A stretch of 64,000 bases of DNA from an uncultured Gammaproteobacteria bacterium (GCA_964344965.1 CAYFPJ010000001.1:22771-86770), one strand, 5' to 3'. Shown: positions 3,320 through 36,138, counted from the first letter of the stretch. Translations and numbers: made by a program. The notes: generated by a model from the sequence alone, not told the origin.

Positions 3320-4585
3320 ATGTGGCAGAAATTTCAGAGAATTTGGAAAATTAAAGATCTTCGCAACAGCATCCTTTTTGTATTAGGGATGCTTGTTATA
3401 TTTCGTGCTGCTGCTCATATTCCGGTGCCTGGTGTGAATCCCGAAGGGTTGAAGCAGTTGTTTGCTGGCAACCAAGTTCTTGGTCTCTTGAATGTATTTT
3501 CTGGTGGTACTATTGAGAATTTTTCTATTGTGATGCTTGGTGTTGCTCCTTATATTACTTCATCTATTATTTTCCAACTTCTGGTGATGGTCATTCCTCG
3601 TTTGGAGGAATTACAAAAAGAAGGTGACTCTGGCCAACAAAAAATCAACATGTACACACGCATCGTGTCTGTACCTCTTGCTATATTGCAAGCTTTTGGA
3701 TTGATCAAGCTTCTTAGCTCTAGTCAGGCCAATATTTTGGGAGATGTGAATACTTTCAAATGGGTCGCCATTCTTACTACAGTAACAGCAGGTACAGTCT
3801 TCCTCATGTGGATTGGTGAGCTTATTACAGACAAGAGAATTGGTAATGGTATCTCTCTCCTAATTTTTGCAGGTATCATCGCAGCCCTGCCGACAGCTGT
3901 CCAGAATGCTATTGTAAACTATACTCCATCTGACCTTACTACTTATATCTTGTTCTTGGTGATTGCTATTGTGACCATTGTTGGTGTAGTGATAATTACA
4001 GAAGGGCAGAGAAATATTCCAATCAGCTATGCACGTCAGGTGCGAGGTAGAGGTGCTGGGTCTAATTCTAGTTTACCGCTTCGAGTGAATATGGCTGGTG
4101 TGATTCCGATCATCTTTGCTATTTCAGTTGTCCTATTTCCACCAATGATTGCGCAGCTTTTTGTAAACAGTGGAGGATTTTTGGGCAGATTTTCCACCAT
4201 GACGATCAACTTGTTTAACAATCAAATATTTTACGGAGCAGTTTATTTCCTACTTGTATTCGGATTTACATATTTTTATACAGCAGTGATCTTTCGTCCA
4301 GAAAAGATGGCCGAGAATCTTCAGCGCCAAGGAGCTTTCATCCCAGGCATTCGTCCTGGTAAGCAAACTGAAGAGTATCTGGCTAGGACCATGAACAGAT
4401 TGCTATTTAGCGGAGCTACTTTCTTGGCTGCGATTGCTGTCTTGCCACTTCTCATGCAAACGGTGACCAACTCCCAGTCTATGGTAGTCGGTGGTACTAG
4501 TCTTCTTATTGTTGTCAGCGTAGCGATTGATATTGCCAAGCAGATCGATGCTCAGCTTACTATGCATGCGTATGATCGGGTGTAG
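3320..4585 (+). CDS. secY: preprotein translocase subunit SecY
   Basis: 421 aa with 10 predicted TM segments and conserved SecY N-terminal motifs (FRAAAHIPVPGV, GTIENFSIVMLGVAPYITSSII). Ends with TAG. Confidence 0.93.
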   Translation: MWQKFQRIWKIKDLRNSILFVLGMLVIFRAAAHIPVPGVNPEGLKQLFAGNQVLGLLNVFSGGTIENFSIVMLGVAPYITSSIIFQLLVMVIPRLEELQKEGDSGQQKINMYTRIVSVPLAILQAFGLIKLLSSSQANILGDVNTFKWVAILTTVTAGTVFLMWIGELITDKRIGNGISLLIFAGIIAALPTAVQNAIVNYTPSDLTTYILFLVIAIVTIVGVVIITEGQRNIPISYARQVRGRGAGSNSSLPLRVNMAGVIPIIFAISVVLFPPMIAQLFVNSGGFLGRFSTMTINLFNNQIFYGAVYFLLVFGFTYFYTAVIFRPEKMAENLQRQGAFIPGIRPGKQTEEYLARTMNRLLFSGATFLAAIAVLPLLMQTVTNSQSMVVGGTSLLIVVSVAIDIAKQIDAQLTMHAYDRV

Positions 4586-4660
4586 TTTGAAAATTAACAA
4601 TTAACAATTAACAAAACCCGCGGAAGTGGGATTTTTGTTCAGTTGGCAACTTATAGGCAA

Positions 4661-4720: not shown

Positions 4721-5035
4721 ATGGGCTTTTTTGCATATCTTTTTGGGACAGGTGCTCCAAAGAATAAAATATCCAATGTCGAACATCCTCTTGGTAAAGA
4801 TGAGATTTTTCTTCTTGTCTCGACTGCCAAAATTAAGACTCTTGATCGCAAAGAAAGAGACCTAATTCGTGAATTAATTTTGAAGCGTCGTCTGGGAGAC
4901 GGGAAGATTTCTGCCAGGCAGATTGATGAAGTACTTGCTCAAGCAGAACATGAAAACTTGATTAGTAAGTATGATAGGCAAAATGTGGTGAGAGTAATTG
5001 GTGAACATTTCAATAAAAAATTTGGAAATGCCTGA
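4721..5035 (+). CDS. hypothetical protein (104 aa) inserted between secY and adk
   Basis: Complete ORF with no recognisable motif. It occupies a slot that is normally empty in spc operons. Confidence 0.45.
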   Translation: MGFFAYLFGTGAPKNKISNVEHPLGKDEIFLLVSTAKIKTLDRKERDLIRELILKRRLGDGKISARQIDEVLAQAEHENLISKYDRQNVVRVIGEHFNKKFGNA

Positions 5036-5045
5036 AATACTGAAA

Positions 5046-5106
5046 AAGCTTAAAAGGCTACTATTTTTCAAGCCTTTTAAGCTTTTCAAGCCTTTTAAGT
5101 TTTTTT
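5046..5106 (+). terminator. hairpin with alternative pairings plus T-run (attenuator/terminator-like) immediately before adk
   Basis: aagcttaaaaggct (5046-5059) is the exact reverse complement of agccttttaagctt (5071-5084). A third copy, caagccttttaag (5088-5100), could pair alternatively and is followed by a T-run. Confidence 0.35.
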
Positions 5107-5108
5107 GT

Positions 5109-5768
5109 ATGAAAAAAATAATTATATTAATGGGGGTCCCTGGTAGTGGTAAAGGAACTCAAGCCAAAAAATTAGTCGAACGACATGGCTATGGTCATAT
5201 CTCTACTGGAGATCTGCTTCGTGCTCTTGCAGTAGATGAAAATGCTGATCCAGAAGACAAGCAAATGCTAGTTGACATGAAGGCTGGTAAGCTTGTTGCC
5301 GACAAATTGATTTACAAACTTGCTTTTGCAGAAATAGAAAAATATCTGTCAAAAGACACTGGAGTGGTGTTGGATGGAGCGATTCGAAATGTTGAGCAGG
5401 CAAAAAAGTATCAAGAATTTTTTGTTGAAAATAACTTGGCAGAAGAGGTGGTAGTAGTTGAAGTTTCCCTCAGTGATGAGACTAGCTTTCTACGCCTATC
5501 AAGACGCAAAGTTTGTTCTGGTTGTGGGGATATCATCCCGTACTCCAAAGAAAATGAATCAAAAAAAGAATGTGAAAAGTGCGGTGGGGAGCTGGTAGTA
5601 AGAGAAGACGACAACGAAGAGGTGATCAGAAAAAGAATCGAGGAACAAGGTAATGAAAAGCTACAACCAATTTTGGATTTTTATCGTGATCTCGGAATAT
5701 TACAATCTGTAGATGGTGAGATGAGTATTAATGAGGTAGATGGGGAGATTATCAAAATACTAGAGTAG
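5109..5768 (+). CDS. adk: adenylate kinase with zinc-binding lid
   Basis: P-loop GVPGSGKGTQ and a CSGCGD...CEKCGGEL Cys4 lid. The start is chosen at MKKIIILMG; the track ORF extends upstream in-frame across the hairpin. Confidence 0.9.
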   Translation: MKKIIILMGVPGSGKGTQAKKLVERHGYGHISTGDLLRALAVDENADPEDKQMLVDMKAGKLVADKLIYKLAFAEIEKYLSKDTGVVLDGAIRNVEQAKKYQEFFVENNLAEEVVVVEVSLSDETSFLRLSRRKVCSGCGDIIPYSKENESKKECEKCGGELVVREDDNEEVIRKRIEEQGNEKLQPILDFYRDLGILQSVDGEMSINEVDGEIIKILE

Positions 5769-5776
5769 AACGAAAG

Positions 5777-5846
5777 GATTCCTGCCGAAAGGCAGGTCAG
5801 TCCGGACAGCGTTCGTAGACCGCCTTTCGGTGGCAATCCTAAGTTT
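5777..5846. repeat. about 68-bp structured element, copy 1: outer stem aggatt/aatcct enclosing two GNRA-loop hairpins (cctgcc-gaaa-ggcagg and ccgcc-tttc-ggtgg)
   Basis: Seen directly. The reverse-complement copy is at 12187-12256. Confidence 0.7.
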
Positions 5847-5872
5847 AGCACAACACTTGTTTTAAAATTAAA

Positions 5873-5892
5873 CCTGCCTGCCGGCAGGCAGG
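5873..5892. repeat. 20-bp perfect GC palindrome CCTGCCTGCCGGCAGGCAGG (copy 1 of 7)
   Basis: Perfect palindrome in an AT-rich adk-map intergenic region. Related copies are at 8087, 30188, 31548 (split), 36298 and 52490. Confidence 0.8.
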
Positions 5893-5917
5893 AATTTCAA
5901 ATTAAAAATTACCAATT

Positions 5918-6733
5918 ATGTCTTATAAAAAAACTGCCGAGGAGGTAAAATTAATTATCGAAGGTGGAAAATTGATGGGAGGAATATTAGAAAAAATATC
6001 CAAGCTTGCTGTAGTTGGTGCCGTGCCAGCTGATATTGATCGTGAGGCAGAGAGATTGATTCGTGAAGCTGGCGGTATTCCTGCATTCAAGGGCTATGGT
6101 GGGGGAAATGGTGTACCAGCATTTCCATCTACTATTTGTTCCTCTATCAATGATGGGTTGGTTCATGGTGTCCCACGTGAAGATATTACACTTCAGGATG
6201 GAGATATCTACAGTATTGATATTGGGATGCAATATCCTGCCAATAGCGGTCTTGGTAAGAATGGTAATGGATTCTTCACAGATACAGCTCTGACTATTCC
6301 AATTGGCGAAATTCCTGAAAAAACCAAGCAATTACTCAGTGTTACCAAAAGGGCACTGGAAATCGGAATTGAGCAGTGTCAAGTTGGCAATACTATAGCT
6401 GATATTGGAAAAGCGATTCAGGATTACATCGATCCTCAAGGTTATGGAATTGTCCGTGATCTAGTCGGGCATGGTGTGGGTCATGAAGTGCACGAAGAGC
6501 CGCGAGTGCCAAATTATCATGATGATAAATTAAAAACTTGGGTTCTGGAGCCGGGGGTAGTGATTGCAGTAGAGCCGATGATCACTATTGGGGATTATCA
6601 AGTTGAGACAGACGAAGAAGATGGTTGGACGATTCGTACCAAGGATCGTAGTCTCAATGCTCATTTTGAGCATACTATTGCTATTACAGAGGATGGACCG
6701 GTGGTGGTTACTAGAAGACCTAGTGAGGTTTAG
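5918..6733 (+). CDS. map: methionine aminopeptidase, type I
   Basis: Metal-ligand motifs DGDIYSIDIG and HGVGHEVHEEP, with a C-terminal E ligand region. 271 aa. Confidence 0.92.
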   Translation: MSYKKTAEEVKLIIEGGKLMGGILEKISKLAVVGAVPADIDREAERLIREAGGIPAFKGYGGGNGVPAFPSTICSSINDGLVHGVPREDITLQDGDIYSIDIGMQYPANSGLGKNGNGFFTDTALTIPIGEIPEKTKQLLSVTKRALEIGIEQCQVGNTIADIGKAIQDYIDPQGYGIVRDLVGHGVGHEVHEEPRVPNYHDDKLKTWVLEPGVVIAVEPMITIGDYQVETDEEDGWTIRTKDRSLNAHFEHTIAITEDGPVVVTRRPSEV

Positions 6734-6736
6734 ATT

Positions 6737-7675
6737 ATGCACAAGATAATATCTATATTTAGTCCGAAAGATGACGCCAAGAAGTTATTGGGAAATATAA
6801 ATTTGTCTGATGTTGATGATATTTATTTTTGCGACAATGCTGCAGATGCAAAAATTCATACCAAAGACGCTACAATCCTTTTTGGCAGACCTCCAGAATT
6901 GATCAAGATTGTGGATGATACACCAAACCTGCAGTGGATTCATTCTAGCTTTACTGGAGTAGATGCCCTTTTCAATTCTCCTAGACGTGACTATCTGCTT
7001 TCCAACACAAGAGGTATATATGGTCAACATATTACTGAATATGTGATTGGACATCTTATTTTGATAGAGAGAAATTTTTTGAAATATACCGAACAAAAAA
7101 AGCAGGCAATATGGAAGCATCATCAGTATTCCGGACTAGCTAACAAAACCATTGGCATCATGGGTTATGGCTCTATCGGCTCTCATCTTTCAAAAGTGTC
7201 AGCTACTTTTGGAATGAATGTCTGGGTATACAGACACAATAGAGAAAAGCCGTCAGAAGCTCAGGCTGTTTTTGTTGGAGATCAACTTAAAGATTTTTTA
7301 AAGGGATGTGATTATGTCGTCAATGTTCTTCCTGCCACAGAAGAGACTTCATCTCTAATAAATTCAGATGCTTTTGATCACATGAAAGATCAATCTATTT
7401 TTATAAATGTTGGCAGGGCAAGTGTTGTAGATTCAGAAGCTTTGGTTGCGGCCCTAAGAGACGGTAGAATAAGATCTGCAGTCCTTGATGTTTTTCCAGA
7501 AGAGCCTCTTCCAGATTCTAGCCCTTTGTGGGAAATGGATAATGTTTTTGTAACTCCACATAATGCGGCCAGAGGGTCCTCTTCTGACATTTTGGGTCAA
7601 TTTGTAGAGAATTACAACAGATTTATAAAAGGTCAAGAATTAAAAAATATTGTAAATTTTGAGAGAGGATACTGA
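6737..7675 (+). CDS. D-isomer-specific 2-hydroxyacid dehydrogenase family protein (NAD-binding)
   Basis: Rossmann GIMGYGSIGSHL, catalytic R/E/H region (VGRASVVD...VTPHNA). 312 aa. Confidence 0.8.
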   Translation: MHKIISIFSPKDDAKKLLGNINLSDVDDIYFCDNAADAKIHTKDATILFGRPPELIKIVDDTPNLQWIHSSFTGVDALFNSPRRDYLLSNTRGIYGQHITEYVIGHLILIERNFLKYTEQKKQAIWKHHQYSGLANKTIGIMGYGSIGSHLSKVSATFGMNVWVYRHNREKPSEAQAVFVGDQLKDFLKGCDYVVNVLPATEETSSLINSDAFDHMKDQSIFINVGRASVVDSEALVAALRDGRIRSAVLDVFPEEPLPDSSPLWEMDNVFVTPHNAARGSSSDILGQFVENYNRFIKGQELKNIVNFERGY

Positions 7676-7678
7676 TTT

Positions 7679-8053
7679 ATGAACATACTAGGTATTGACT
7701 ATGGTAAAAAGAGAATTGGACTTGCTTGGGTGCAGTCTGGTCTTGATGTGGTGTTGCCCTACGGAACAATTAACAATGAACAATTAACAATTAACAAACT
7801 TATTGAATTTGTTAGAGATGAAAAGATAGATAGAGTTGTCGTGGGTTTACCACTTGGTTTGGATGGGGGAGAAAATGAAAATACCAAAAAAGTTCGTGGT
7901 TTTGTAGAAGAATTTAAAAAAGAAATAAGTATACCTGTTGAATTTGTAGACGAACGTTTTTCTTCTCGTCAGGCTGATGTCATGGGTGGCGAGGTAAGCC
8001 GAGATGAGAAAGCAGCTATGGTTATTCTTCAGTCGTATTTGGATAAGGTTTGA
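7679..8053 (+). CDS. ruvX: Holliday-junction resolvase-like protein RuvX/YqgF
   Basis: MNILGIDYGKKRIGLAWV N-terminus with the RNase-H-like YqgF fold signature. Contains an in-frame caattaacaa-type tandem repeat at 7764-7798. Confidence 0.85.
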   Translation: MNILGIDYGKKRIGLAWVQSGLDVVLPYGTINNEQLTINKLIEFVRDEKIDRVVVGLPLGLDGGENENTKKVRGFVEEFKKEISIPVEFVDERFSSRQADVMGGEVSRDEKAAMVILQSYLDKV

Positions 8054-8086
8054 ATTTCAAATCACAGTTCCCCTCCTTAGAAAGCC

Positions 8087-8105
8087 ATGCCTGCCGGCAG
8101 GCAGG
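8087..8105. repeat. GC palindrome family member (gcctgccggcaggcagg)
   Basis: Seen directly. It is adjacent to an imperfect long hairpin (8104-8185) with an ACGAATATTCGT apex, and to a ccccctttccaaggggg hairpin. Confidence 0.7.
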
Positions 8106-8220
8106 GAGGGGTTAGAGGTGGTTGATTCATAGTACGAATATTCGTGGTGCTATCATCAACCCCCTCTAACTCCCCCTTTCCAAGGGGGAGGATTTACTTG
8201 GTAGATATGCCCTAATTTAT

Positions 8221-8982
8221 ATGAGAGCAATAGTACTAGCCAGACGTGACTTTCGTGAGTCCAATCAGGTGATCACAGTCTATACTCCTGACAAAGGGAA
8301 ACTCGAATTGATCGCACGTGGTCTAAAAAAAATTACAGCAAAAAACTCGGCTCATCTTGAGCCTTTTTCTTTCGTGGATATTGATACAGTGCCTGGCAAG
8401 GAATATGACTATCTGACCCGCGTCCATCCATTAGAGTATTTTACAGATATTCGTAAAGATTTGGACAAGAGTCTCGTGGCTCAGTACCTTCTCAATTTGG
8501 TCTATCGATTACTAAACATCGGTGAATCAGACAAGAGGGTTTTTGATCTTCTATACTCATGGTTTCGTTTTGTAGACAGCATAGATATTTTCAAAATTAT
8601 CCTCTTGGATTCTTTTGTTATGAAATTTTTCGCCTTGCTTGGTTTTCAGCCGGCACTAGAAGCTTGTGTGATTTGTGATCGTACTTACAGAAGTATGATG
8701 AAGGCTGATATCAAAGGTAAGCACAAACCTGGATTTTATTTTGCTGGGGGCGGATTAGTTTGCGAGGATTGTAAGCTTGAGAAAAGGAAAATAGGGGAGC
8801 AGATCGTGGATTGTGGAATTCGAGAGGTGAGTGACATGCAGATGATCTTGCGCGGAGATTGGCGAGAAGTGGCAAGTTTTGAGATTGATGAAGTAGAATA
8901 TAATAAGCTACACAAGTTAGTCTACGAGTTTGTGATTTATCATAGTGAGAAGAAGGTTGGGGATTGGGGTGAGGTGTTGTAG
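8221..8982 (+). CDS. recO: DNA repair protein RecO
   Basis: N-terminal OB region (AIVLARRDFRESNQVITVYT) and a C-terminal CxxC...CxxC zinc motif (CVICD...CEDC). 253 aa. Confidence 0.85.
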   Translation: MRAIVLARRDFRESNQVITVYTPDKGKLELIARGLKKITAKNSAHLEPFSFVDIDTVPGKEYDYLTRVHPLEYFTDIRKDLDKSLVAQYLLNLVYRLLNIGESDKRVFDLLYSWFRFVDSIDIFKIILLDSFVMKFFALLGFQPALEACVICDRTYRSMMKADIKGKHKPGFYFAGGGLVCEDCKLEKRKIGEQIVDCGIREVSDMQMILRGDWREVASFEIDEVEYNKLHKLVYEFVIYHSEKKVGDWGEVL

Positions 8983-9225
8983 ATGTTGGATCACTTCGTT
9001 TGTTGTAAATGTTTTATTGTTGTATTACTTTGTGGTATTTAATGCCTTTCATTATGTAAATTTGTCCAAGTTGGCACGAACCCCTCCTAACCTCCCCTAC
9101 GAGAGGAGGAATAATTCTGTATTAAAAAACACCTCGATGACCATCGGGGTGTTTTGATAGATTGGGAATGGGCGAGCAGCTGCAGCATGCAGATTGACCT
9201 CTGCTGCCCTCCCCCCTCCGCGTCG

Positions 9226-9387
9226 TCAGGTGACCATCGCCGCAACGATGGCCGCCAGGATGGCGACACGGAGGACGTGCATGGCGACGCGCCATGCACG
9301 AGTTCGCCGGATGGGCTCGGTGAGCCACCCGACGAACGAAGCTGCTGCCCACAAGAGGAGCAGCAGCATGATCACCACGAACCACAT
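9226..9387 (-). CDS. small hydrophobic protein (53 aa) inside a high-GC island, preceded by a perfect AGGAGG Shine-Dalgarno sequence
   Basis: The minus-strand ATG at 9387 is preceded by AGGAGGAACAA. The product is MWFVVIMLLLLLWAAASFVGWLTEPIRRTRAWRVAMHVLRVAILAAIVAAMVT. Local GC is far above the window average. Confidence 0.45.
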   Translation of the reverse strand: MWFVVIMLLLLLWAAASFVGWLTEPIRRTRAWRVAMHVLRVAILAAIVAAMVT

Positions 9388-9631
9388 TTGTTCCTCCTGT
9401 GGGTCTGGGTGAAGAAAAAGCACATTTTTGTAAATATATCTTTTCTTCACCCTATTTTTTCTAAAAATAGACTATTAAATATAACATGCTTTAGCCGTTT
9501 TGTCAACTTTTATGATCAAAAAACTTGCTTATCTTAGCAAAAAATGATAAATTACAGGCATAAGGTTTAAGATTTAAGACATAAGAATTTTCTTATCTTA
9601 TACCTTAAGTTTTATTTCTTATTTCTAAAAT

Positions 9632-10924
9632 ATGCATATTTTAATCAAAGATATCTCTAAGCATGTTGATCAAGAAGTGACGATCAAAGGCTGGCTCTAC
9701 AACAAGCGTTCTTCAGGTAAGATTGCCTTCCTTGAGTTGCGTGATGGGTCGGGGTTTATCCAAGCTATTGTTTCTCAGGCAGAAGTTAGTGAGCAAATTT
9801 GGCAAGATGTCGACAAGACTACCCAAGAATCTGCAGTAATCGTCACTGGAAAAGTTAGTAAACATCCCAAAAAAGAAAATATTTTTGAGTTGCAAGTTAC
9901 TGATTTTGTGCTGCATTCTCTTGCTCAGGAATATCCAATTACTAAGAAAGAACATGGCCCAGACTTCCTTCTCGACAATCGTCATCTCTGGCTCCGAAGT
10001 AAAAAGCAATGGGCTATCCAACGAGTCCGTGATGTAGTGATCCAGGCAATTTATGATTTTTATCATGCCAACGGATTTATAAAAATCGATACTCCAATCA
10101 TCACACCAAACGCATGTGAAGGAGCGACAACACTTTTTGGAATAGAGTATTTTGATCAGGGCGAAGTATTTCTCTCCCAATCTGGACAACTTTATCTCGA
10201 AGCAGCGATTATGTCTGTTGGTAGAGGATTTGATTTTGGTCCTACTTTTCGGGCAGAGAAAAGCAAAACCAAACGCCATCTGACAGAATTCTGGATGATG
10301 GATGCAGAGGCTGCTTATGTCGAACATGAGGAAAGCATGGAAATTCAAGAAAATATGATCGTATTTATTGTTGAGCAATGTCTTGAAAAATGTCAGCAAG
10401 AATTAGCTATCTTGGAGAGAGATCTCGAGCCACTTAAAAAAATACAAGCACCTTTCACTCGTTTGACCTATAGCGAAGCAATAGAAAAATTGAATTCACT
10501 CGGTTCAGATATAAAATTTGGTGAAGATCTTGGTAATGATGACGAAGGTACACTGACCCAGGATTCAGACGTGCCAGTATTTATTCACAAATGGCCCAAA
10601 GCAATCAAGCCATTCTATATGAAGCAAGATCCAGATAATCCAGAATTAGTGCTAAACAATGATCTAATAGGTACAGAAGGATCTGGAGAGCTAATCGGAG
10701 GATCTCAGCGTGAGGATGATTATGAGATATTGAAAGCTGCTATTGAAAAAGAAGGTCTAGAAGGAGAAGAATATCAGTGGTACCTAGATCTTCGCAAGTA
10801 TGGCTCTGTGCCTCATTCTGGCTTCGGTCTAGGATTAGAAAGGACTGTAGGGTGGATATGTGGTGTGAAGCACATCAGAGAGACTATCCCTTTCCCAAGA
10901 CTTATCAATAGAGTCAGACCTTAG
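9632..10924 (+). CDS. asnS: asparaginyl-tRNA synthetase (class IIb)
   Basis: N-terminal OB anticodon-binding domain and class II motifs (FRAEKSKTKRHLTEFWMMDAE, GSGELIGGSQRE, GFGLGLERTV). At 430 aa the length fits AsnRS rather than AspRS. Confidence 0.88.
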   Translation: MHILIKDISKHVDQEVTIKGWLYNKRSSGKIAFLELRDGSGFIQAIVSQAEVSEQIWQDVDKTTQESAVIVTGKVSKHPKKENIFELQVTDFVLHSLAQEYPITKKEHGPDFLLDNRHLWLRSKKQWAIQRVRDVVIQAIYDFYHANGFIKIDTPIITPNACEGATTLFGIEYFDQGEVFLSQSGQLYLEAAIMSVGRGFDFGPTFRAEKSKTKRHLTEFWMMDAEAAYVEHEESMEIQENMIVFIVEQCLEKCQQELAILERDLEPLKKIQAPFTRLTYSEAIEKLNSLGSDIKFGEDLGNDDEGTLTQDSDVPVFIHKWPKAIKPFYMKQDPDNPELVLNNDLIGTEGSGELIGGSQREDDYEILKAAIEKEGLEGEEYQWYLDLRKYGSVPHSGFGLGLERTVGWICGVKHIRETIPFPRLINRVRP

Positions 10925-10932
10925 ATTTTTGT

Positions 10933-12129
10933 ATGCCTGAAGGTGGTGGAAAACACGACATGGATCCCAAAGTTTCTGGACCAGATGATGCTGATTTTGT
11001 TGCTGCCCCGGAAGAAGAGGTGGTAGAGCAAGAAGCCAGATTTGAAGATGAGCCAACAGACGTTGCAGATTCGATAGAGAATGAAGAAGAGCGGGCTGTT
11101 CGACAGCAATCTCTGGAAGAGTTGAAAGCTGCTTATCTTGGCTATAGAATTAACCAAGACGGAAAAGAATTATCTTTTGCTGGGGCAATTGATAGAATTG
11201 AATCTCTAGCAGAAAAAATTTCTGGTTTTACTGCTGAAGAACAGTCTGAACAAGAAAATTACTCAGATGTGGATGGTGATGAATCAACCTTGGTTTATTC
11301 TGCCATAGACTCAAAGCTTAATGATATTTTTGTTTTTTCCTCTGAAAACGATTCAAGTAGAGAATTGAAAAGTAGTATTGAACAAAAATTTGATTCAGTA
11401 CTTGATAAAATCAAGAAGTTATTTTCTAGCGATGATACCATTGATGAACAAAAGATGGAGGAACAGATTAATAATATTTTGAAGAATTTTTTCAATTTTC
11501 TTGATAAATTATACAATAAATTGACCGCTGAGGGAGATGAAGAAGATGCTGCATCTTCTTTTAGAGAAGATTTGGCTACTTTAGATGAGGATGATTATTT
11601 CGATGATGAGCAAGAGGAAATAAAAGATGCTTCTCACTTACGTTTGGTTTCAACTGCTACTGATGATACAGATGAGAATAATGATGATGACGCAGCTGCG
11701 GCAGCTACCATGCTCCTTCTCAATAATGACGAAGCAGAAGGTTCCTTTGGTGCTGTAACAAAAGATCCTGAGATCGGCGAGAGGTGGAAGAAAATGATTG
11801 TCAGTGGATTTATGAACGGTTCTTTAATTAGAGAGAGTGACGGATCTTATAAAATGGAAGTTCGCAATCCGGTGATTCCATGGATTGCAGATAAGCCGGA
11901 AGAATTTTTCCGTAAGAATTATGAACGCCATGCCGGTGATCCAGAATATTTTTCTACCCGCCGTAATCCAGCTCGCGATGGAGAATTTTTTCCACGTGAG
12001 GTGTTTTTGGATGAGACTGGGACAGCATTAGACTTGTATATCAATGGACGATTTGATGAATTTGCCAGCACTGAGGCGGGGAAGAATTTTTATGCTGAGG
12101 AGCAGAGCCCCTTTGAGATAGCGGCATAG
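10933..12129 (+). CDS. hypothetical highly acidic protein (398 aa, D/E-rich)
   Basis: Complete ORF tightly following asnS. No recognisable domain. Confidence 0.55.
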   Translation: MPEGGGKHDMDPKVSGPDDADFVAAPEEEVVEQEARFEDEPTDVADSIENEEERAVRQQSLEELKAAYLGYRINQDGKELSFAGAIDRIESLAEKISGFTAEEQSEQENYSDVDGDESTLVYSAIDSKLNDIFVFSSENDSSRELKSSIEQKFDSVLDKIKKLFSSDDTIDEQKMEEQINNILKNFFNFLDKLYNKLTAEGDEEDAASSFREDLATLDEDDYFDDEQEEIKDASHLRLVSTATDDTDENNDDDAAAAATMLLLNNDEAEGSFGAVTKDPEIGERWKKMIVSGFMNGSLIRESDGSYKMEVRNPVIPWIADKPEEFFRKNYERHAGDPEYFSTRRNPARDGEFFPREVFLDETGTALDLYINGRFDEFASTEAGKNFYAEEQSPFEIAA

Positions 12130-12186
12130 AATGTATTTGCGAAATTACGAAAGGTGCGAAATATACGAACCATTAATAATACTAAA

Positions 12187-12256
12187 GGATTACCACCGAA
12201 AGGCGGTACCACGAAGATTGTGTGTGCTAGCCTGCCTTTCGGCAGGAATCCTAACG
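12187..12256. repeat. about 68-bp double-GNRA-hairpin element, copy 2 (reverse complement orientation of 5777-5846)
   Basis: The reverse complement reproduces aggattcctgccgaaaggcagg...accgcctttcggtgg..aatcc, with a different 22-nt centre. Confidence 0.7.
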
Positions 12257-12359
12257 TTTTGGTTGTTTTTTTGTACTTTTCGTAATTTTGCACATCTTAG
12301 ATATTTGCCAAAACTATATTATTTTGCTAAGATATTACTGTTAATTTAGCAAAATATTT

Positions 12360-14171
12360 ATGGAATATCGTACTCACAATTGTGGACAATTAAACACAAA
12401 ACAAGCTGGACAAGAAGTAATTCTTTCTGGTTGGGTACACCGTCGTCGAGACCTTGGTGGTCTTATTTTTATTGACCTCCGAGATCGTTATGGGATTACT
12501 CAGGTAGTTTTTCATCCTGATCAGTTGGCTGATTTTGCTGTAGCAGAAAGTCTGAAATACGAATACGTGGTCAGAGTAAAAGGTAAAATAGAAAACAGAA
12601 AGAAAGAAAATGTTAATAAAGATCTGAAGACTGGTGAGATTGAAGTGATGGCTACAGAACTGAGTGTCCTCAGTACAGCGAAGGCTATGCCTTTTGAGAT
12701 TTTTGAAACAAACAAAGGTGAAGAAGACGAAGAGCTGAGATTGAAATATCGTTTTCTTGAATTGCGTCGAGAAAGATTGCGTGAAAATATTATCTTCCGC
12801 GCCAAGATGGTCTCCCACATTCGTAAATATATGGACGAGCACGACTTTGTCCACATTGATACGCCAATCTTGACTGTTAGTTCACCAGAAGGGGCACGAG
12901 ATTTCCTCGTCCCATCTAGACTACATCCTGGTAAATTTTATGCCCTACCGCAAGCTCCGCAGCAGTACAAGCAGCTTTTGATGGTGGCTGGCTTTGATCG
13001 TTATTATCAGATTGCTCCTTGCATGCGTGATGAAGACCCGAGAGCCGACCGTTCTCCGGGAGAATTTTACCAGCTGGATTGTGAGACTAGTTTCATGAGT
13101 CAAGACGAGTTTTTTGAACTCATGGAACCCTTGTTTATCGAATTGACAGAAAAAGTTGCAGGTAAAAAAGTAAAATCAAAACCACTACCAAGGATTCCAT
13201 TCAAAGAGTGTATGGAGACTTATGGTAGTGACCGACCAGACTTGCGCTATGATCTTGAAATTCAAGAAGTAACAGAATGGGCCAAAGGAACAGACTTCAA
13301 AGTTTTCAACAGTGCAGAGCATGTCCGTGTTTTGGTGATCCCTGGAGGTGATAAATTTACTCGCAAAGAGATTGACAAAGAGTTTACAGATGTGGCCAAG
13401 AGAGCGCACGCCAAAGGACTGGCTTGGATGAAATATATAGATGGCAAGTTTGAAGGAGGGGTGAGTAAATTTTTTGATGATGATCAGCTAGAAAAGTTGT
13501 TGAATTTACTTAAGGCGAGACCCCCCTCCGACTCCCCCCTACAAGGGGGGAGGGAATCGGGTGGACTTGGGGATGCTATTCTTTTTTTCTCGGCTGATGA
13601 TTGGGAAGTGAGTTGTACAGCTCTTGGGGCGGTGAGGCATATGGCAGGAGAGAAGCTTGATCTGGCAGATCCAAATGAGGTTGCTTGGGCTTGGATAGTG
13701 GATTTTCCATTTTATGAGAAAGATGCGGAGACTGGCAAGATAGATTTTTCACACAATCCATTCTCAATGCCTCAAGGTGGTATGGAGACTCTAGAAAACA
13801 CAGATCCACTAGATATCAAGGCTTTTCAGTATGACATCATTGCTAATGGTCTTGAACTTAGCTCTGGCGGAGTACGAAACAAAGATCCAGAAATAATGTA
13901 CAAAGCATTTGAAATAGCTGGCTATACCAAGGAAGACGTGGATGCCAAATTTGGTCACATGATCAGAGCTTTTGAATTTGGTGCTCCTCCTCATTGTGGA
14001 TTTGCTCCTGGTATCGAGAGGATGGCTATGCTCCTCTTGGGAGAGAAAAATATTCGTAGCGTAGTTCCATTCCCCAAGAATCAAAAAGCAGAAGAACCAA
14101 TGGTGGGTAGTCCTGCTGAGGCCGATGAAGGGCAGTTGAAAGAATTAGGATTGGAAATAAAAAATATATGA
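12360..14171 (+). CDS. aspS: aspartyl-tRNA synthetase (bacterial type with GAD insertion)
   Basis: 603 aa. Motifs QQYKQLLMVAGFDRYYQIAPCMRDED, GGVRN, GFAPGIERM. Contains a GC-rich in-frame insert at about 13505-13562. Confidence 0.92.
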   Translation: MEYRTHNCGQLNTKQAGQEVILSGWVHRRRDLGGLIFIDLRDRYGITQVVFHPDQLADFAVAESLKYEYVVRVKGKIENRKKENVNKDLKTGEIEVMATELSVLSTAKAMPFEIFETNKGEEDEELRLKYRFLELRRERLRENIIFRAKMVSHIRKYMDEHDFVHIDTPILTVSSPEGARDFLVPSRLHPGKFYALPQAPQQYKQLLMVAGFDRYYQIAPCMRDEDPRADRSPGEFYQLDCETSFMSQDEFFELMEPLFIELTEKVAGKKVKSKPLPRIPFKECMETYGSDRPDLRYDLEIQEVTEWAKGTDFKVFNSAEHVRVLVIPGGDKFTRKEIDKEFTDVAKRAHAKGLAWMKYIDGKFEGGVSKFFDDDQLEKLLNLLKARPPSDSPLQGGRESGGLGDAILFFSADDWEVSCTALGAVRHMAGEKLDLADPNEVAWAWIVDFPFYEKDAETGKIDFSHNPFSMPQGGMETLENTDPLDIKAFQYDIIANGLELSSGGVRNKDPEIMYKAFEIAGYTKEDVDAKFGHMIRAFEFGAPPHCGFAPGIERMAMLLLGEKNIRSVVPFPKNQKAEEPMVGSPAEADEGQLKELGLEIKNI

Positions 14172-14529
14172 AAAGGTCTGGAGGATTAGAATATAAAAGT
14201 TCAAAGAGAAGTGCAGATAGCAGACTCTCTCAAGCCTTGGCTCATGCGAAAAGAGATTTACGCAATCATTTTGTTTCAAAAAACAGAGAGATAGACGAAG
14301 ATTTTTTTAATTCAGCGGGAACTCCCCGCCTGTTAAGGTGGGGATGAGAGTCAAATCCTGCTCAAGCAGGACAAGCCCAGCTTGAACTGTAGGCCTCAAG
14401 GCCACAAGTGCCACGGCTGTTAAGCCGTGGGTATCTACTGCTTTTCAGGAAAATGAGGCCCGACTTGCTTTTCAGGGAAATCCTCATGGGGATATCGAAA
14501 AACTAAGAGAAAAATTTTATCGTCCTGAT

Positions 14530-14721
14530 GTGACAGATCCGTCTCTGTGGCTAGAAGATACAAAAGGTAGGGTGATGGCAGAGCAGGCCCAGATTTTGGT
14601 GGGAGCGTTGGATATGGTGCGTAGTGGCAAGTCTAAGTCATTGGAGGTCTCACAAGCTTTGGCTTTGGCTGATTTGTTTATAAATCCTCCAAAAGACGTA
14701 TCTACTGGTGAATCATTTTAA
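14530..14721 (+). CDS. small hypothetical ORF (63 aa, GTG start) in a long intergenic region
   Basis: Only ORF-track support. Confidence 0.2.
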   Translation: MTDPSLWLEDTKGRVMAEQAQILVGALDMVRSGKSKSLEVSQALALADLFINPPKDVSTGESF

Positions 14722-14846
14722 AGTTTTTTAGAATAAAAATTACTATCCTCAGAGATAGTTTTTTATTGTATGAAGATAAAAAATATGCTATAATTATTTC
14801 GTTTTTTATGCCTTATTTTAGCAAAAATTTTGGAAATTATTGATTT

Positions 14847-17158: not shown

Positions 17159-17271
17159 GCACATAGGTAGATTTAGGTGCTTAGGTTATTAGGTTTTTGT
17201 GACTTGGTAATTTAAATTCCTAACAACCTAAAGACCTGTAGCCTATACTTACTTATACTTATCTAAGACCT

Positions 17272-19394: not shown

Positions 19395-19473
19395 TGCCCG
19401 AGGAGAGAATCGAACTCTCACTCCCGAAGGAACACGATTTTGAGTCCCGCCTTCGCTAAAGCTACGGCGGGCA
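19395..19473 (-). tRNA. degenerate tRNA-like sequence (CUCAAAA loop, long variable arm, canonical T-arm) lacking a proper D-arm and acceptor pairing; possible pseudo-tRNA or integration scar
   Basis: Reverse complement: GCCCGCC...GGCGGGACTCAAAATCGTGTTCCTTCGGGAGTGAGAGTTCGATTCTCTCCTCGGGCA. The T-arm is perfect. The 5' GCCCGCC pairs locally with GGCGGGC instead of with the 3' end. Confidence 0.35.
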
Positions 19474-19495
19474 GGCGTGCGTTTAATTATTTTCG

Positions 19496-19579
19496 TGCCG
19501 AAGGAGGGACTTGAACCCTCAAGAGCTTGCGCTCGCAGCATTTTGAGTGCTGTGCGTTTACCAATTTCACCACTTCGGC
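19496..19579 (-). tRNA. tRNA-Leu (anticodon CAA)
   Basis: Reverse complement: GCCGAAGTGGTGAAATTGGTAAACGCACAGCACTCAAAATGCTGCGAGCGCAAGCTCTTGAGGGTTCAAGTCCCTCCTTCGGCA. Cloverleaf with long variable arm. Close to E. coli tRNA-Leu(CAA). CCA is not encoded. Confidence 0.8.
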
Positions 19580-20457: not shown

Positions 20458-20604
20458 TTAAATCTTTAAGCGGTTTTATTCCTCGATGCTTGCATCGAAA
20501 AAGTGAAAACTAACATTGGTTGAAATAAGATTTTCTGCCAATACCCCGCAGCTTGCTGCGGGGATGGCCCGATGAAGTCTTACTTAAACCAAATTTACTT
20601 TTAT
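20458..20604. repeat. 147-bp element, copy A (exact duplicate of 27204-27350), ending 22 nt upstream of the parB ATG
   Basis: Identical sequence, read directly. Contains hairpins cgatg-cttg-catcg and ccccgcag-cttg-ctgcgggg (CUUG tetraloops). Confidence 0.85.
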
Positions 20605-20625
20605 TGTTAATTGTCAATTGTCATT

Positions 20626-26643: not shown

Positions 26644-26807
26644 AAGGTCAGCAGATTAGGCAGAATATGCAGATCAAGCAGATTATGCCAGTCAAGTTTA
26701 CCTGATTTTAGGTAATTTATGCTTAGATCTTTTTTAGACTTTTAACAGCATAGTCGATATTGCACTGCATGTCAAATGGTGGTATTCTGTATTATGTAAT
26801 TTTTTAA

Positions 26808-27089: not shown

Positions 27090-27203
27090 TATATATCGCA
27101 CCATATTGAGAGAAAGTAAATTTTAGATATATTTATATATCTCTTACGGAATATAGGATTAACTAACTAAATATATATTTTACATTAACTTTACTAAATA
27201 ATT

Positions 27204-27350
27204 TAAATCTTTAAGCGGTTTTATTCCTCGATGCTTGCATCGAAAAAGTGAAAACTAACATTGGTTGAAATAAGATTTTCTGCCAATACCCCGCAGCTTG
27301 CTGCGGGGATGGCCCGATGAAGTCTTACTTAAACCAAATTTACTTTTATT
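27204..27350. repeat. 147-bp element, copy B, ending 4 nt upstream of the ATG at 27354
   Basis: Exact duplicate of 20458-20604. Confidence 0.85.
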
Positions 27351-27719: not shown

Positions 27720-29033
27720 CTATTTTTTTGTATGTAATTCTCCGCTCAAAAAAATAGAACCGGTAACTAAAATTAGATCATCTTTCGAGGTGATCTTTTT
27801 TATACTCTCAAGAGCCTCTTTCGGATCAAGAAAAATTTTCATCTTAGTTTTTGGCAGAAGTTTTTTTAGCTTTTTATATATTGTTTGCGGGTCAGCTACT
27901 TTGCGAAAAGGGTTGCTGGTATAGCGAGTGATAGCTATTGATTTTGGGTTTAGTTTGGCAAGTTCGCGGAGCATGGTTGAGACATCTTTGTTGGCGGAGA
28001 AACCTATAATTAGGTGTATGGGTTTGCAAGTTTGCAAGTTTGCAAGTTTGCAAATTGCTTCCACTGTGGTTTTCATCTTATATGGATTGTGGGCGGCGTC
28101 GAGAATAATCGTTGGGTTTTGAGAGACTATTTCCATGCGGAGAGGTTGGTGTGCATTTTTGAGACCAAGCTTTATTTTGTTTTCTGGAACACCAAGTGAT
28201 CTTGCTATTTCTATACACAAAATTGCGTTCCTGATTTGATGTTGTCCAGGTACATTTATTTTGTAGTTTTGTTTATGGTAATTAAAAATTTGTTCATTAA
28301 AAAATTGTTTGAAAATTGAAAATTGAAAATTGAAAATTTTAAGCGAGGCTTTTTGTTTTTTACATTCATTTTCAATAATTTTCAATACTTTTTTGTTTTT
28401 TTCTGCTGTGAATACAAGATTGCCTTGCTTGATAATACCCGCTTTCTCATATGCAATTTCCTCCTTATTATTCCCAATGATTCCGACATGATCTAATCCG
28501 ATGTTGGTAATTACAGCAACATCTTTGTGAGGGATGACATTGCTAGCATCGTAGCGTCCACCGCAAGCCACCTCAAGTACTGCCCATTTTACTTTTTTAC
28601 GCGCAAAATAGACAAAACCGATTGCTTCGGTTAATTCAAAAAAAGATAGCATGTCGTACGGGGTGGTCCTGATATACTCATCCAACTTTGGTTTGATGTA
28701 TTCTATTAGCTCAACAAATTCACGTTTGCTCATGTATTTATTCCCGACCTTCCAGCGCTCAGTAATTGTAGTAGGGTGAGGAGAATAGGTTGATCCGACA
28801 TTTTTTTCACTTTCTTTCAAGATAGAGTGAAGGAAGCTGGTGACAGAGCCTTTGCCGCTAGTACCAGTAACATGTATGTAGTGAGAGATTTTTTTTTCTG
28901 GATTGTCTAGAATATCTAGGAAGAATTGAAGACGCTTAAGATACCACTCACATTTTCGTGGGTCGGTCATGTATTCTTTGCGGGGTAAGTTGAAGAGGGA
29001 GATGAGGTAGTTGTAGGCGGATTGGAAGTTCAC
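27720..29033 (-). CDS. folC: Mur-ligase-family folylpolyglutamate synthase / dihydrofolate synthase-like protein
   Basis: ATP-binding loop HVTGTSGKGS, the Mur ligase central and C-terminal domains. Carries in-frame tandem repeats (gtttgcaa x4; gaaaatt x4). Confidence 0.75.
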   Translation of the reverse strand: MNFQSAYNYLISLFNLPRKEYMTDPRKCEWYLKRLQFFLDILDNPEKKISHYIHVTGTSGKGSVTSFLHSILKESEKNVGSTYSPHPTTITERWKVGNKYMSKREFVELIEYIKPKLDEYIRTTPYDMLSFFELTEAIGFVYFARKKVKWAVLEVACGGRYDASNVIPHKDVAVITNIGLDHVGIIGNNKEEIAYEKAGIIKQGNLVFTAEKNKKVLKIIENECKKQKASLKIFNFQFSIFKQFFNEQIFNYHKQNYKINVPGQHQIRNAILCIEIARSLGVPENKIKLGLKNAHQPLRMEIVSQNPTIILDAAHNPYKMKTTVEAICKLANLQTCKPIHLIIGFSANKDVSTMLRELAKLNPKSIAITRYTSNPFRKVADPQTIYKKLKKLLPKTKMKIFLDPKEALESIKKITSKDDLILVTGSIFLSGELHTKK

Positions 29034-29097: not shown

Positions 29098-29469
29098 TTA
29101 CATTGTTTTTTTATTTTCTATATTCATCCAACCACGAAGGGTTCTACCTGCTTCATTAGCTTTGCTATACAATACTCTTGCCGTTTCAATGGATATATAA
29201 TTAAGATCTTTTGATAGTATGATATAATATTTTACCTCTTCGAGAGAGCTCATTGATATCCCATAAAAGCATAATTTTTCACGAGAGGTTTTTCTATAAA
29301 AACCCTCAACAATATTAGCTGCTACAGAGGTTGAAGATCGACGCATTTGTGAAGATAATCCACATCTTTCTTCCTTTGGGAATTGTTGGGTTATTTGCTA
29401 CACGTCTAGATTAAAGGTATGTGCATGTTGCCATGCTCTTATATCTATAAATTTGGTAATTGTAGCCAT
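29098..29469 (-). pseudogene. four-helix-bundle protein (TIGR02436-like) gene interrupted by a single in-frame TAG at codon 24
   Basis: Minus-strand translation: MATITKFIDIRAWQHAHTFNLDV-stop-QITQQFPKEERCGLSSQMRRSSTSVAANIVEGF...SLEEVKYYIILSKDLNYI matches the family consensus end to end. The stop is at 29398-29400. Confidence 0.55.
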
Positions 29470-30187: not shown

Positions 30188-30207
30188 CCTGCCTGCCGGC
30201 AGGCAGG
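30188..30207. repeat. 20-bp GC palindrome CCTGCCTGCCGGCAGGCAGG
   Basis: Perfect copy, followed by ACGAAT-word-rich AT sequence. Confidence 0.8.
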
Positions 30208-30373
30208 TATACGAATTGTACTAATGATACTAATTGTATACGAATAATAAGATTAAGATAATTTGGTTGACTTTACTGACAATAGAATGATTTGAAAAAT
30301 ATATTAGTATTCATTCGTATCATTAGTAAAGTTAGTATATTGGTATCATATTTACAACATATGTTTGTATCGT

Positions 30374-31645: not shown

Positions 31646-31662
31646 TGATTGGATTTATAAAT

Positions 31663-35966: not shown

Positions 35967-36138
35967 TGAAATTTTCAATTTTTAATTTTCAATTTTTAAA
36001 ATTGTCTTATTGACAGTTTTATTTTTTTACGATATATTGTTGACGTCAAATGCCCCTGTTGCCCCTGTAGTTTCCCGACTTTGTCGGGATCAGCCTTTGG
36101 CTGATAATGGATAGTCCCGATATATAGATTTTGGTTCA

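What the first reader, a model, noticed from the sequence alone, without database searches (positions are those of the whole stretch)
5777..12256. 68-bp double-GNRA-hairpin element present twice in opposite orientation
The element at 5777-5846 and the reverse complement of 12187-12256 share: an outer aggatt/aatcct stem, the hairpin cctgcc-GAAA-ggcagg, a variable 22-nt centre, and the hairpin ccgcc-UUUC-ggtgg (GAAA on the other strand).

Compensatory conservation of the stems with a free centre is what a structured RNA or protein-binding cruciform shows, rather than a decaying repeat.
Basis: seen in the sequence. Interest (0 to 1): 0.55.

Follow-up and report, generated by a model that had tools for sequence, protein, structure and literature searches.

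The report
Small palindromic repeat, two inverted copies
Two copies of a 66-nt GC-rich palindromic repeat lie between housekeeping genes of a Magasanikbacteria-like (CPR) genome; it resembles the small hairpin-forming intergenic repeats (REPIN/BIME/MITE type) known from other bacteria, and nothing shows it to be a new structured RNA.

Summary
Copy A (5775-5840, +) and copy B (12186-12252, -) share arms that are identical at 43 of 44 positions. Their 23/24-nt centres are only 54% alike.

The "double GNRA hairpin" is a by-product of symmetry. The right arm is an imperfect reverse complement of the left arm, so the whole element is a palindrome. On either strand it prefers one long hairpin (-36/-33 kcal/mol) over the proposed two-hairpin junction (-26).

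There is no covariation between the copies, because the stems are simply identical. No third copy or homologue turned up anywhere:
- Rfam
- GTDB representative genomes
- JGI metagenomes
- about 0.9 Mb of related CPR and viral loci, searched with a covariance model

The closest relative (Map protein 81% identical, same gene order) has neither copy. In the same adk-map spacer it carries a different nested palindrome, at another insertion point.

The host genome is full of other GC-rich palindromes. One is inserted in-frame in aspS. Another is a 20-nt palindrome that uses the same CCTGCC/GGCAGG stem.

Best reading: a lineage-specific REPIN/BIME/MITE-like palindromic doublet whose arms are constrained and whose spacer is free. 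It is a new member of a known kind, of modest interest. No transposase was found in the window, and the rest of the genome could not be reached.

The parts
5775..5840 (+). Copy A, 66 nt. Layout: AGGATT (5775-5780), hairpin CCTGCC-GAAA-GGCAGG (5781-5796), centre (5797-5819), hairpin CCGCC-TTTC-GGTGG (5820-5833), unpaired C (5834), AATCCT (5835-5840). It starts 6 nt after the adk stop codon and ends 77 nt before the map start codon.
   Evidence: (92.5 bits on +, 39.5 bits on -)
12186..12252 (-). Copy B, 67 nt, inverted relative to A. In + coordinates: outer stem 12186-12191, unpaired base 12192, hairpin 2 at 12193-12206, centre 12207-12230, hairpin 1 at 12231-12246, outer stem 12247-12252. It lies between the stop codon of the 398-aa acidic protein gene (12129) and the aspS promoter-like site.
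   Evidence: (96.3 bits on -, 41.5 bits on +)
12138..12292 (.). Composite 155-nt palindrome with copy B at its apex. Its outer stem of about 24 bp is built from TACGAA-rich units (about 12138-12161 against 12269-12292).
   Evidence: MFE -66.6 kcal/mol, z = -7.7; alignment shows the flanks pairing; TACGAA at 12146, 12164, 12279
5873..5892 (.). Perfect 20-nt palindrome CCTGCCTGCCGGCAGGCAGG ('pal20'), 32 nt downstream of copy A. It has the same CCTGCC/GGCAGG stem as hairpin 1 and is absent from the relative's spacer.
12305..12333 (+). Promoter-like site for aspS (TTGCCA-17-TAAGAT), conserved in the relative L021. It shows that copy B lies upstream of, and outside, the aspS transcription unit.
   Evidence: site listed; same sequence block present in L021

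Best explanation
The element is a lineage-specific miniature palindromic repeat, of the kind described as REP doublets (REPINs/BIMEs) or hairpin-forming MITEs. It consists of two inverted copies of a 22-nt unit, each with its own small C-GAAA-G hairpin, around a 23/24-nt spacer.

Shown: both copies descend from one ancestor. The arms have been kept almost unchanged while the spacer drifted. The element sits in intergenic spacers as a lineage-specific insertion. It is one of several GC-rich palindrome families in this AT-rich Magasanikbacteria-like genome.

Inferred: the copies arose by duplication or transposition of the whole hairpin. The arms persist because they are the part that must pair or be recognised, as an ssDNA or RNA hairpin, with arm-to-arm templated correction as a possible contributor. 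When read through as part of the adk or upstream-operon transcript, either orientation folds into a long GC-rich stem of about 22 bp. That stem would protect the upstream mRNA 3' end and may partly stop read-through. This effect is a by-product rather than the reason the element exists.
For: - Palindromic anatomy with a stable long hairpin on both strands; the covariance model also scores the opposite strand at 40-41 bits.
- Arms 43/44 identical against centre 13/24, while the centres remain detectably homologous. This matches the published REPIN pattern of conserved inverted ends and a less conserved spacer (PMC3116915).
- Intergenic position in both cases.
- Both copies absent from the closest relative despite conserved gene order. 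That relative has a different nested palindrome in the same adk-map spacer, and the spacers align at similar length once the palindromes are removed.
- No homologue in any collection or in about 0.9 Mb of related loci, and no Rfam family.
- The genome carries other GC-rich palindromic insertions. One is in-frame in aspS and one follows secY; both are missing in the relative. Of the GC-rich perfect hairpins, 17 of 20 are intergenic.
- Copy B sits at the apex of a larger palindrome made of another repeat family, giving a mosaic, BIME-like arrangement.
- Both copies are flanked on the + strand by AA|...|AA, a possible 2-bp target duplication.
Against: - Only two copies are visible, and the rest of the genome could not be reached, so 'repeat family' rests on n = 2.
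- No transposase, RAYT or integrase was found among the roughly 50 window proteins scanned.
- The AA flanks are weak evidence in AT-rich DNA.
- No clean empty site is available, and the spacer alignment with the relative is short and AT-rich.
- One compensatory difference between the left and right local hairpins, plus G.U pairs on one strand only, hints at selection on a folded single strand. That could equally be an RNA.
- The proposed effect on mRNA is untested, and there is no U-tract.
Confidence: 0.55

Rival explanations
1. It is an RNA hairpin selected in place, working within the operon transcript. It would act as an intercistronic 3'-end stabiliser, processing site or U-tract-independent terminator between adk and map, and at the end of the operon upstream of aspS. 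The two copies would share sequence through local duplication or gene conversion, not through mobility.
For: - Both copies lie just downstream of a stop codon on the + strand, and copy B lies just upstream of the conserved aspS promoter.
- The relative has a strong hairpin of different sequence at the same adk-map position and another upstream of adk, so 'a hairpin here' seems to recur.
- Tetraloop hairpins (GAAA, CUUG) are common in this genome's spacers.
- A T-rich stretch starts 4 nt after copy B on the + strand.
Against: - There is no U-tract directly after the stem, so the scan does not call either copy terminator-like, whereas canonical terminators do exist here, for example 4617-4630.
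- The strand that folds best (with G.U pairs) is + for A but - for B.
- The palindromes in the two species sit at different points of the spacer.
- Near-perfect 22-25-bp symmetry is more than an RNA stabiliser needs.
Confidence: 0.2
2. It is a stand-alone small structured RNA gene: a three-way junction with an outer stem, a GAAA hairpin, a variable centre and a second hairpin, present as two paralogues.
For: - Stable fold.
- One compensatory difference and one G.U between the two local hairpins.
- Both copies carry their G.U pairs on the same element strand.
- Arms conserved, centre free.
Against: - No Rfam hit.
- No homologue anywhere, and absent in the closest relative.
- The junction fold is 8-11 kcal/mol worse than the simple long hairpin.
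- No convincing promoter or terminator frames either copy.
- There is no covariation between the copies.
Confidence: 0.07
3. It is a DNA-level protein-binding or recombination site. In this reading the inverted pair brackets the 6.3-kb map-to-398-aa segment as sites for a site-specific recombinase (an invertible segment) or a nucleoid or topology protein that binds cruciforms.
For: - The two copies are inverted and flank a defined segment (repeat I3).
- The DNA folds equally well on both strands.
- C-GAAA-G mini-hairpins are also very stable in ssDNA (my own knowledge, not tested here).
Against: - The bracketed genes are housekeeping genes in the same order and orientation as in the relative.
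- No recombinase or integrase is present in the window.
- The four independent assemblies compared show an identical adk-map spacer, including copy A; inversion of the segment was not tested, since those contigs stop inside it.
- Inversion would turn essential genes against their operon context.
Confidence: 0.08
4. It is a guide-RNA-like module: conserved hairpin scaffolds presenting a variable centre of about 23 nt that pairs with a target.
For: - The centre is variable between conserved hairpins.
- RNA-guided systems with unusual arrays exist in Patescibacteria (TIGR-Tas, abstract of PMC12045711 seen).
Against: - Neither centre matches anything in the window or about 1 Mb of loci beyond chance.
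- The copies are singletons, not an array.
- No associated effector gene is nearby.
- The centres are still homologous to each other, which fits drift rather than spacer acquisition.
Confidence: 0.03

Closest known systems
[quoted passage not shown]
   Same: - Two short palindromic units in inverted orientation around a spacer, with the whole folding into a hairpin in ssDNA or mRNA.
- Ends highly conserved and spacer less so, with spacer length preserved.
- Extragenic location.
- Mosaic association with other short repeat motifs (copy B inside TACGAA-rich units).
The published description was read in PMC3116915.
   Different: - Much smaller: 66 nt, with 45 nt between arm starts, against 71 bp or more in the paper.
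- Only two copies seen.
- No RAYT gene in the window.
- No sequence similarity to known REPs was observed.
- The GTAG motif next to the hairpin is present in A only (GTGG in B).
- The host is a reduced CPR genome, where such elements have not, to my knowledge, been described.
Hairpin-forming bacterial MITEs (Correia/NEMIS, RUP, ERIC) and Rickettsia palindromic elements
   Same: - Short non-coding elements with terminal inverted repeats that fold into a long hairpin.
- Lineage-specific insertion in spacers.
- Possible 2-bp flanking duplication.
- The same genome also has a palindromic insertion in-frame within a protein gene (aspS), as Rickettsia palindromic elements do.
The properties of these families are recalled from my own knowledge, not tested here.
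   Different: - Shorter than these families.
- No parent insertion sequence with matching ends was found.
- The internal region diverges strongly between copies while the ends are kept.
- Copy number is unknown.
Intrinsic (bidirectional) transcription terminators
   Same: GC-rich stem with a stable tetraloop, placed just after stop codons, and able to fold in either orientation.
   Different: There is no U-tract adjacent to the stem. The stem, at about 22 bp with a nested structure, is much longer than usual. An identical 22-nt arm sequence is shared between two loci.
Integron attC sites
   Same: An imperfect inverted repeat with a variable centre, 57-141 bp in known cases, recognised as a folded single strand (my own knowledge).
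   Different: The ends have no RYYYAAC/GTTRRRY core sites. The copies are in opposite orientation, bracket housekeeping genes rather than cassettes, and no integrase is present.

Membership tests
REPIN / REP-BIME | Two palindromic units in inverted orientation separated by a short spacer, with the whole forming a hairpin | tested here: met
   Arm alignment and folds:
REPIN / REP-BIME | Ends more conserved than the spacer | tested here: met
   43/44 against 13/24, Fisher P = 1.5e-5; criterion taken from PMC3116915
REPIN / REP-BIME | Extragenic location | tested here: met
   Between adk and map, and between the 398-aa gene and aspS
REPIN / REP-BIME | Tens to hundreds of copies per genome | tested here: inconclusive
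   2 copies in 64 kb. The rest of the source genome could not be fetched, and it is not in the GTDB representative set.
REPIN / REP-BIME | A cognate RAYT (IS200/IS605-like Y1 transposase) gene in the genome, flanked by the repeats | tested here: inconclusive
   None among about 50 window proteins scanned with Pfam. The genome outside the window was not examined.
REPIN / REP-BIME | Conserved GTAG/CTAC tetranucleotide beside the REP hairpin | tested here: inconclusive
   Copy A has GTAG 1 nt 5' of hairpin 2; copy B has GTGG-TA. The motif definition is from my own knowledge.
MITE | Terminal inverted repeats | tested here: met
   AGGATT...AATCCT, extending as an imperfect 22-nt inverted repeat
MITE | Target-site duplication of fixed length | tested here: inconclusive
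   AA on both sides of both copies on the + strand. This is weak evidence in AT-rich DNA, and there is no 3-bp or longer duplication.
MITE | Presence/absence at orthologous sites in relatives | tested here: inconclusive
   Both copies are absent in L021/L024 (Map 81% identical). That spacer holds another palindrome, so there is no clean empty site.
MITE | A parent insertion sequence with the same ends | tested here: inconclusive
   No transposase in the window. The arm pattern gives only chance-level single hits in GTDB genomes and one in viral contigs.
Intrinsic terminator | GC-rich hairpin followed directly by a U-tract | tested here: not met
   Neither copy is listed by the terminator scan. 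After A the sequence is AAGTTTAG; after B on + it is AACGTTTTGG.
Any Rfam RNA family | Score at or above the family's gathering threshold | tested here: not met
   Only two tRNAs in the window reach threshold. The best sub-threshold hits over the copies are implausible eukaryotic families.
Structured small RNA gene (generic) | Covariation supporting the proposed fold across homologues | not testable with these tools
   The stems of the two copies are identical and no further homologue was found.
Integron attC | R''/R' core sites, cassette array in one orientation, nearby integrase | tested here: not met
   No core sites can be read at the ends. The copies are inverted around housekeeping genes, and no integrase is present.

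The most novel reading that the evidence does not exclude
This CPR genome, its relatives and some phages may host a previously undescribed system of GC-rich mini-palindromes that spread without a nearby transposase. Three observations point that way:
- A 20-nt palindrome, CCTGCCTGCCGGCAGGCAGG, recurs five times in the window. It also occurs in distant CPR loci and in 35 viral contig stretches, once as the extra arm of a phage tRNA-Met.
- A related C-rich/G-rich hairpin is inserted in-frame in aspS.
- The 66-nt element would be a doublet built from the same CCTGCC/GGCAGG stem.
If so, the arms are recognition hairpins of a new kind of mobile or templated palindrome-generating process in reduced genomes.
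Probability: 0.15. Interest if true: 0.6.

Novelty: new member of a known kind. Interest (0 to 1): 0.3.

Why it matters
On its own, the element adds one more small palindromic intergenic repeat to a long list. Its main value is as a caution: inverted-repeat symmetry automatically produces paired 'GNRA/complement' hairpins that can look like a structured RNA.

It matters somewhat more in context. CPR/Patescibacteria genomes are small and gene-dense and are thought to carry few repeats. This one nevertheless shows several families of GC-rich palindromes that differ from its closest relative, including one inside a protein-coding gene. If these prove to be mobile or actively generated, they would be a handle on genome dynamics, and perhaps on transcript-end formation, in organisms that cannot yet be cultured.

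Tried and rejected
- Rfam, at gathering threshold on the whole window and by E-value on both loci: only tRNAs and implausible eukaryotic hits.
- Degenerate arm pattern against GTDB representative genomes: 15 single-arm hits in unrelated phyla, about the number I estimated for chance (roughly 17), and none with two arms. Against viral contigs: 1 chance hit inside GC-rich sequence.
- Whole-element pattern allowing transitions in the stems, against JGI metagenomes: 0 hits.
- Reaching the rest of the source genome: look-ups by exact protein returned only short Logan/ENA contigs with identical sequence, and one look-up failed because of a wrong start codon.
- A closer relative: nothing exists between 81% and 100% Map identity. 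Four more contigs of the 81% relative were identical to each other in the spacer.
- Guide-RNA idea: the centres match nothing beyond a chance 13-mer inside a coding region of L038.
- tRNA-derived origin: the 12-nt identity GATTCCTGCCGA with the T-arm of tRNA-Arg (36139-36211) has a rough chance probability of 0.3-0.4 after multiple testing by my own estimate, so I did not pursue it.
- attC, invertible segment and composite transposon bracketed by A and B: rejected because the bracketed genes are ancestral and syntenic in the relative and no recombinase is present.
- Sequencing-adapter artefact for the 20-nt palindrome: considered and judged unlikely. It is consistently intergenic, has variants in relatives, and the copy next to A is identical in the four independent assemblies compared.
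Full report
**1. The observation**

Reading both loci and aligning them confirms the finding. Copy A occupies 5775-5840 on the + strand (66 nt). Copy B occupies 12186-12252 read on the - strand (67 nt).

Both copies have the same layout: AGGATT, CCTGCC-GAAA-GGCAGG, a centre of 23 nt (A) or 24 nt (B), CCGCC-TTTC-GGTGG, one unpaired base (C in A, T in B), and AATCCT.

The match is far beyond chance. A degenerate arm pattern finds four matches, the two arms of each copy, against 0.02 expected. CCGCCTTTCGGTGG finds two against 0.02. No third copy exists in the window, even with 3-5 mismatches allowed.

**2.

The right arm is an imperfect reverse complement of the left arm (AGGATTCCTGCCGAAAGGCAGG against AGGATTGCCACCGAAAGGCGGT). 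The 'second hairpin with GAAA on the other strand' therefore follows automatically from inverted-repeat symmetry.

RNAfold prefers one long hairpin on every strand:
- A: -36.4 kcal/mol on the element strand, -31.3 on the opposite strand.
- B: -33.3 and -31.5.
- With DNA parameters, all four strands fold at about -18.

**3. Conservation pattern**

The arms are identical at 43 of 44 positions and the centres at 13 of 24 (Fisher P = 1.5e-5). The centres are still more similar than shuffled sequences (P = 0.013), with TTCGT as the only conserved block. The whole element therefore has one ancestor, and the arms have been held constant while the centre drifted.

There is, however, no compensatory change between the copies, because the stems are identical. 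The only covariation-like signal lies between the left and right local hairpins of each copy: one U-A against C-G pair, and one G-C against G.U. Both copies share it, so it counts once. The G.U pairs make the A(+)/B(-) strand fold a little better.

**4. Context**

Pfam identifies the neighbours:
- secY (3320-4585), adk (ORF 4998-5768) and map (5918-6733);
- a 2-hydroxyacid dehydrogenase, ruvX and recO;
- a class II aminoacyl-tRNA synthetase (9632-10924);
- an acidic 398-aa protein with no Pfam match (10933-12129);
- aspS (12360-14171).

All are on the + strand. Copy A starts 6 nt after the adk stop codon. Copy B lies between the 398-aa gene and a promoter-like site, TTGCCA-17-TAAGAT (12305-12333), that is conserved in the closest relative.

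Neither copy is followed by a T-run, and the terminator scan lists neither, although canonical terminators do occur, for example after secY. Because the two copies are inverted while the genes are co-directional, no single strand-specific role in those mRNAs fits both.

Copy B sits at the apex of a 155-nt composite hairpin (12138-12292, -66.6 kcal/mol, z = -7.7). Its outer stem consists of TACGAA-rich units. By eye, these units resemble the arms of a 97-nt inverted repeat pair at 52506-52602 / 56255-56351. TACGAA is three-fold enriched in intergenic DNA and clusters beside the GC-rich palindromes.

**5. Organism and relatives**

Map homologues are named Candidatus Magasanikbacteria (CPR/Patescibacteria). 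The same sequence occurs in assemblies of ERR2281800-803 with an identical spacer.

The closest relative (L021/L024/L101; Map 81% and AspS 85% identical) keeps the order adk-map-ruvX-recO-aaRS-aspS but lacks both copies. In the same adk-map spacer it carries a different nested palindrome (ATCATCCTGAA-tttgt-TTCAGGATC ... 30 nt ... GATCCTGAA-ataaa-TTCAGGATGA). It carries another one upstream of adk.

When copy A (plus AA), the adjacent 20-nt palindrome and the relative's palindrome are removed, the two spacers have similar length and align. This suggests separate insertions at different points. It is suggestive only, since the sequences are short and AT-rich.

More distant relatives (40 loci from JGI metagenomes) show unrelated sequences upstream of map.

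**6. Searches for more copies**

All searches were negative:
- Rfam: nothing.
- Arm pattern in GTDB representative genomes: 15 single-arm hits in unrelated phyla, the chance level. In viral contigs: one chance hit.
- Whole-element pattern in JGI metagenomes: none.
- Covariance model: none in 555 kb of CPR loci (best 15.6 bits, E = 0.34) and none in 352 kb of further loci.
- The remainder of the source genome could not be fetched.

**7. The genome is rich in other GC-rich palindromes**

Perfect GC-rich hairpins are almost all intergenic (17 of 20). The perfect 20-nt palindrome CCTGCCTGCCGGCAGGCAGG has three exact and two near-exact copies in the window. One lies 32 nt after copy A, and it uses the same CCTGCC/GGCAGG stem as hairpin 1.

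Relative to L024, the window has extra GC-rich hairpins after secY and, notably, a 16-residue in-frame insertion in AspS. That insertion is encoded by a CTCCCCCC...GGGGGGAG palindrome (13520-13570). No transposase, RAYT or integrase appears among about 50 window proteins.

**8. Interpretation**

The anatomy consists of two inverted palindromic units, a conserved-length but poorly conserved spacer, hairpin formation in ssDNA or mRNA, extragenic location and mosaic association with other motifs. This matches the published description of REPINs/BIMEs (PMC3116915, read). It also matches, more loosely, hairpin-forming MITEs.

Lineage-specific presence, the lack of any homologue, orientation independence and the many other palindromic insertions in this genome all favour a palindromic repeat of insertional origin over an ancient structured RNA.

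I therefore rate it a new member of a known kind, with confidence about 0.55. The main gaps are copy number and the absence of a transposase in the window.

A selected in-place RNA hairpin (stabiliser or atypical terminator) is the main rival, at 0.2. The two readings are not exclusive as regards effect. A stand-alone sRNA (0.07), a DNA recombination or binding site (0.08) and a guide-like module (0.03) are less likely.

**9. Novelty and interest**

The element itself is ordinary in kind. What is unusual is the host: a reduced CPR genome with several palindrome families, one of them shared with distant CPR lineages and phage contigs. That wider pattern, rather than the 66-nt element, deserves follow-up.

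Noticed in passing
window 5873-5892, 30188-30207, 36298-36317 (exact); 8086-8105, 52487-52506 (1 mismatch); split copy about 31538-31590: The perfect 20-nt palindrome CCTGCCTGCCGGCAGGCAGG recurs in spacers. It also occurs, exactly or nearly so, in distant CPR loci (L032, L039, L040, L057-L059). Exact copies occur in 35 viral contig stretches, mostly GC-rich, with up to 6 copies per contig. It is often flanked by short direct or heptamer-like repeats. No paper in the library contains the sequence.
   Followed up: partly
L090 2239-2330 (viral contig); similar context in L067 about 8590-8660: ARAGORN calls a 92-nt tRNA-Met(CAT) in L090. Its variable-arm position is filled exactly by the 20-nt palindrome (…CTCATACCCACGAGG|palindrome|TCGCCGGTTCGAATCC…).
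   Followed up: partly
window 13520-13570 (inside aspS, 12360-14171): An in-frame insertion of 16 residues (RPPSDSPLQGGRESGG region) is encoded by a GC-rich palindrome (CTCCCCCC-taca-GGGGGGAG). It is absent from the 85%-identical AspS of the relative. Similar C-rich/G-rich hairpins lie at 8170-8190 and about 9083-9115 (intergenic) and at 37519-37539 (inside recG). This recalls the Rickettsia palindromic elements that insert into genes.
   Followed up: partly
window 9160-9400, small ORF 9226-9387 on the - strand: A GC-rich island in an AT-rich genome; the window has roughly 400 nt more here than the relative L024. It encodes a 53-aa hydrophobic peptide (MWFVVIMLLLLLWAAASFVGWL…). The ORF has a GGAGGA ribosome-binding site, a strong promoter match (TTGACA-17-TATATT, 9506-9478) and a terminator-like hairpin with a T-run (9128-9160, - strand). 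It is possibly an acquired small membrane peptide or toxin. No Rfam hit.
   Followed up: partly
window 52506-52602 and 56255-56351; also 12136-12170, 12273-12295, 30208-30245: A TACGAA/TTCGTA-rich repeat family. A 97-nt inverted pair (86% complementary) brackets a 3.6-kb block that includes a phosphoglucomutase gene and several small genes. The hexamer is three-fold enriched in spacers and lies next to the GC-rich palindromes. TTCGT is the only conserved block in the centres of copies A and B.
   Followed up: partly
L021 4803-4867 and 5557-5635 (= L024 9124-9188 and 9881-9954): The closest relative has two nested palindromes of its own sequence flanking adk. They have the same hairpin-spacer-inverted-hairpin architecture as the element studied. 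In about 590 kb of loci, this architecture was otherwise seen only once: a direct repeat of a palindromic hairpin in L037.
   Followed up: yes
window 20458-20605 and 27203-27350: A 148-nt direct repeat, 100% identical, contains a CCCCGCAG-cttg-CTGCGGGG hairpin. One copy lies between parA and parB, and the other lies upstream of a 119-aa ORF.
   Followed up: no
window 31491-31660 and 36251-36420: A composite repeat of about 170 nt made of several GC-rich hairpins, including the 20-nt palindrome (interrupted by about 30 nt in the first copy). One copy lies 40 nt downstream of tRNA-Arg(GCG) and the other next to pth. It could be an unrecognised structured RNA or a mosaic repeat.
   Followed up: no
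window 14172-14846: A 675-nt stretch with no ORF of at least 80 aa and several GC-rich tetraloop hairpins (for example CCACGGCT-gtta-AGCCGTGG). It occupies the place where the relative has a 705-aa glycosyltransferase gene. No Rfam hit.
   Followed up: partly
window spacers, e.g. 1081-1210, 4586-4616, 9538-9631, 17159-17271, 26644-26700, 28307-28339, 35967-36000, 59330-59410, 60012-60103: Many spacers carry a locus-specific 6-8-nt motif repeated in tandem, often followed by its inverted complement, giving long AT-rich hairpins. The Logan contigs L001-L003 all end at about window 7795, within one such repeat (7768-7801).
   Followed up: no
window about 19400-19485 (- strand), next to tRNA-Leu(CAA) at 19495-19579: The sequence has a tRNA-like 3' end (GAGAGTTCGATTCTCTCCTCGGGCA), but neither ARAGORN nor Rfam calls it. 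It may be a degenerate or unusual tRNA.
   Followed up: no
window 29098-29346 (- strand): An 82-aa protein of the '23S rRNA intervening-sequence protein' family (PF05635), encoded away from any rRNA gene in the window.
   Followed up: no
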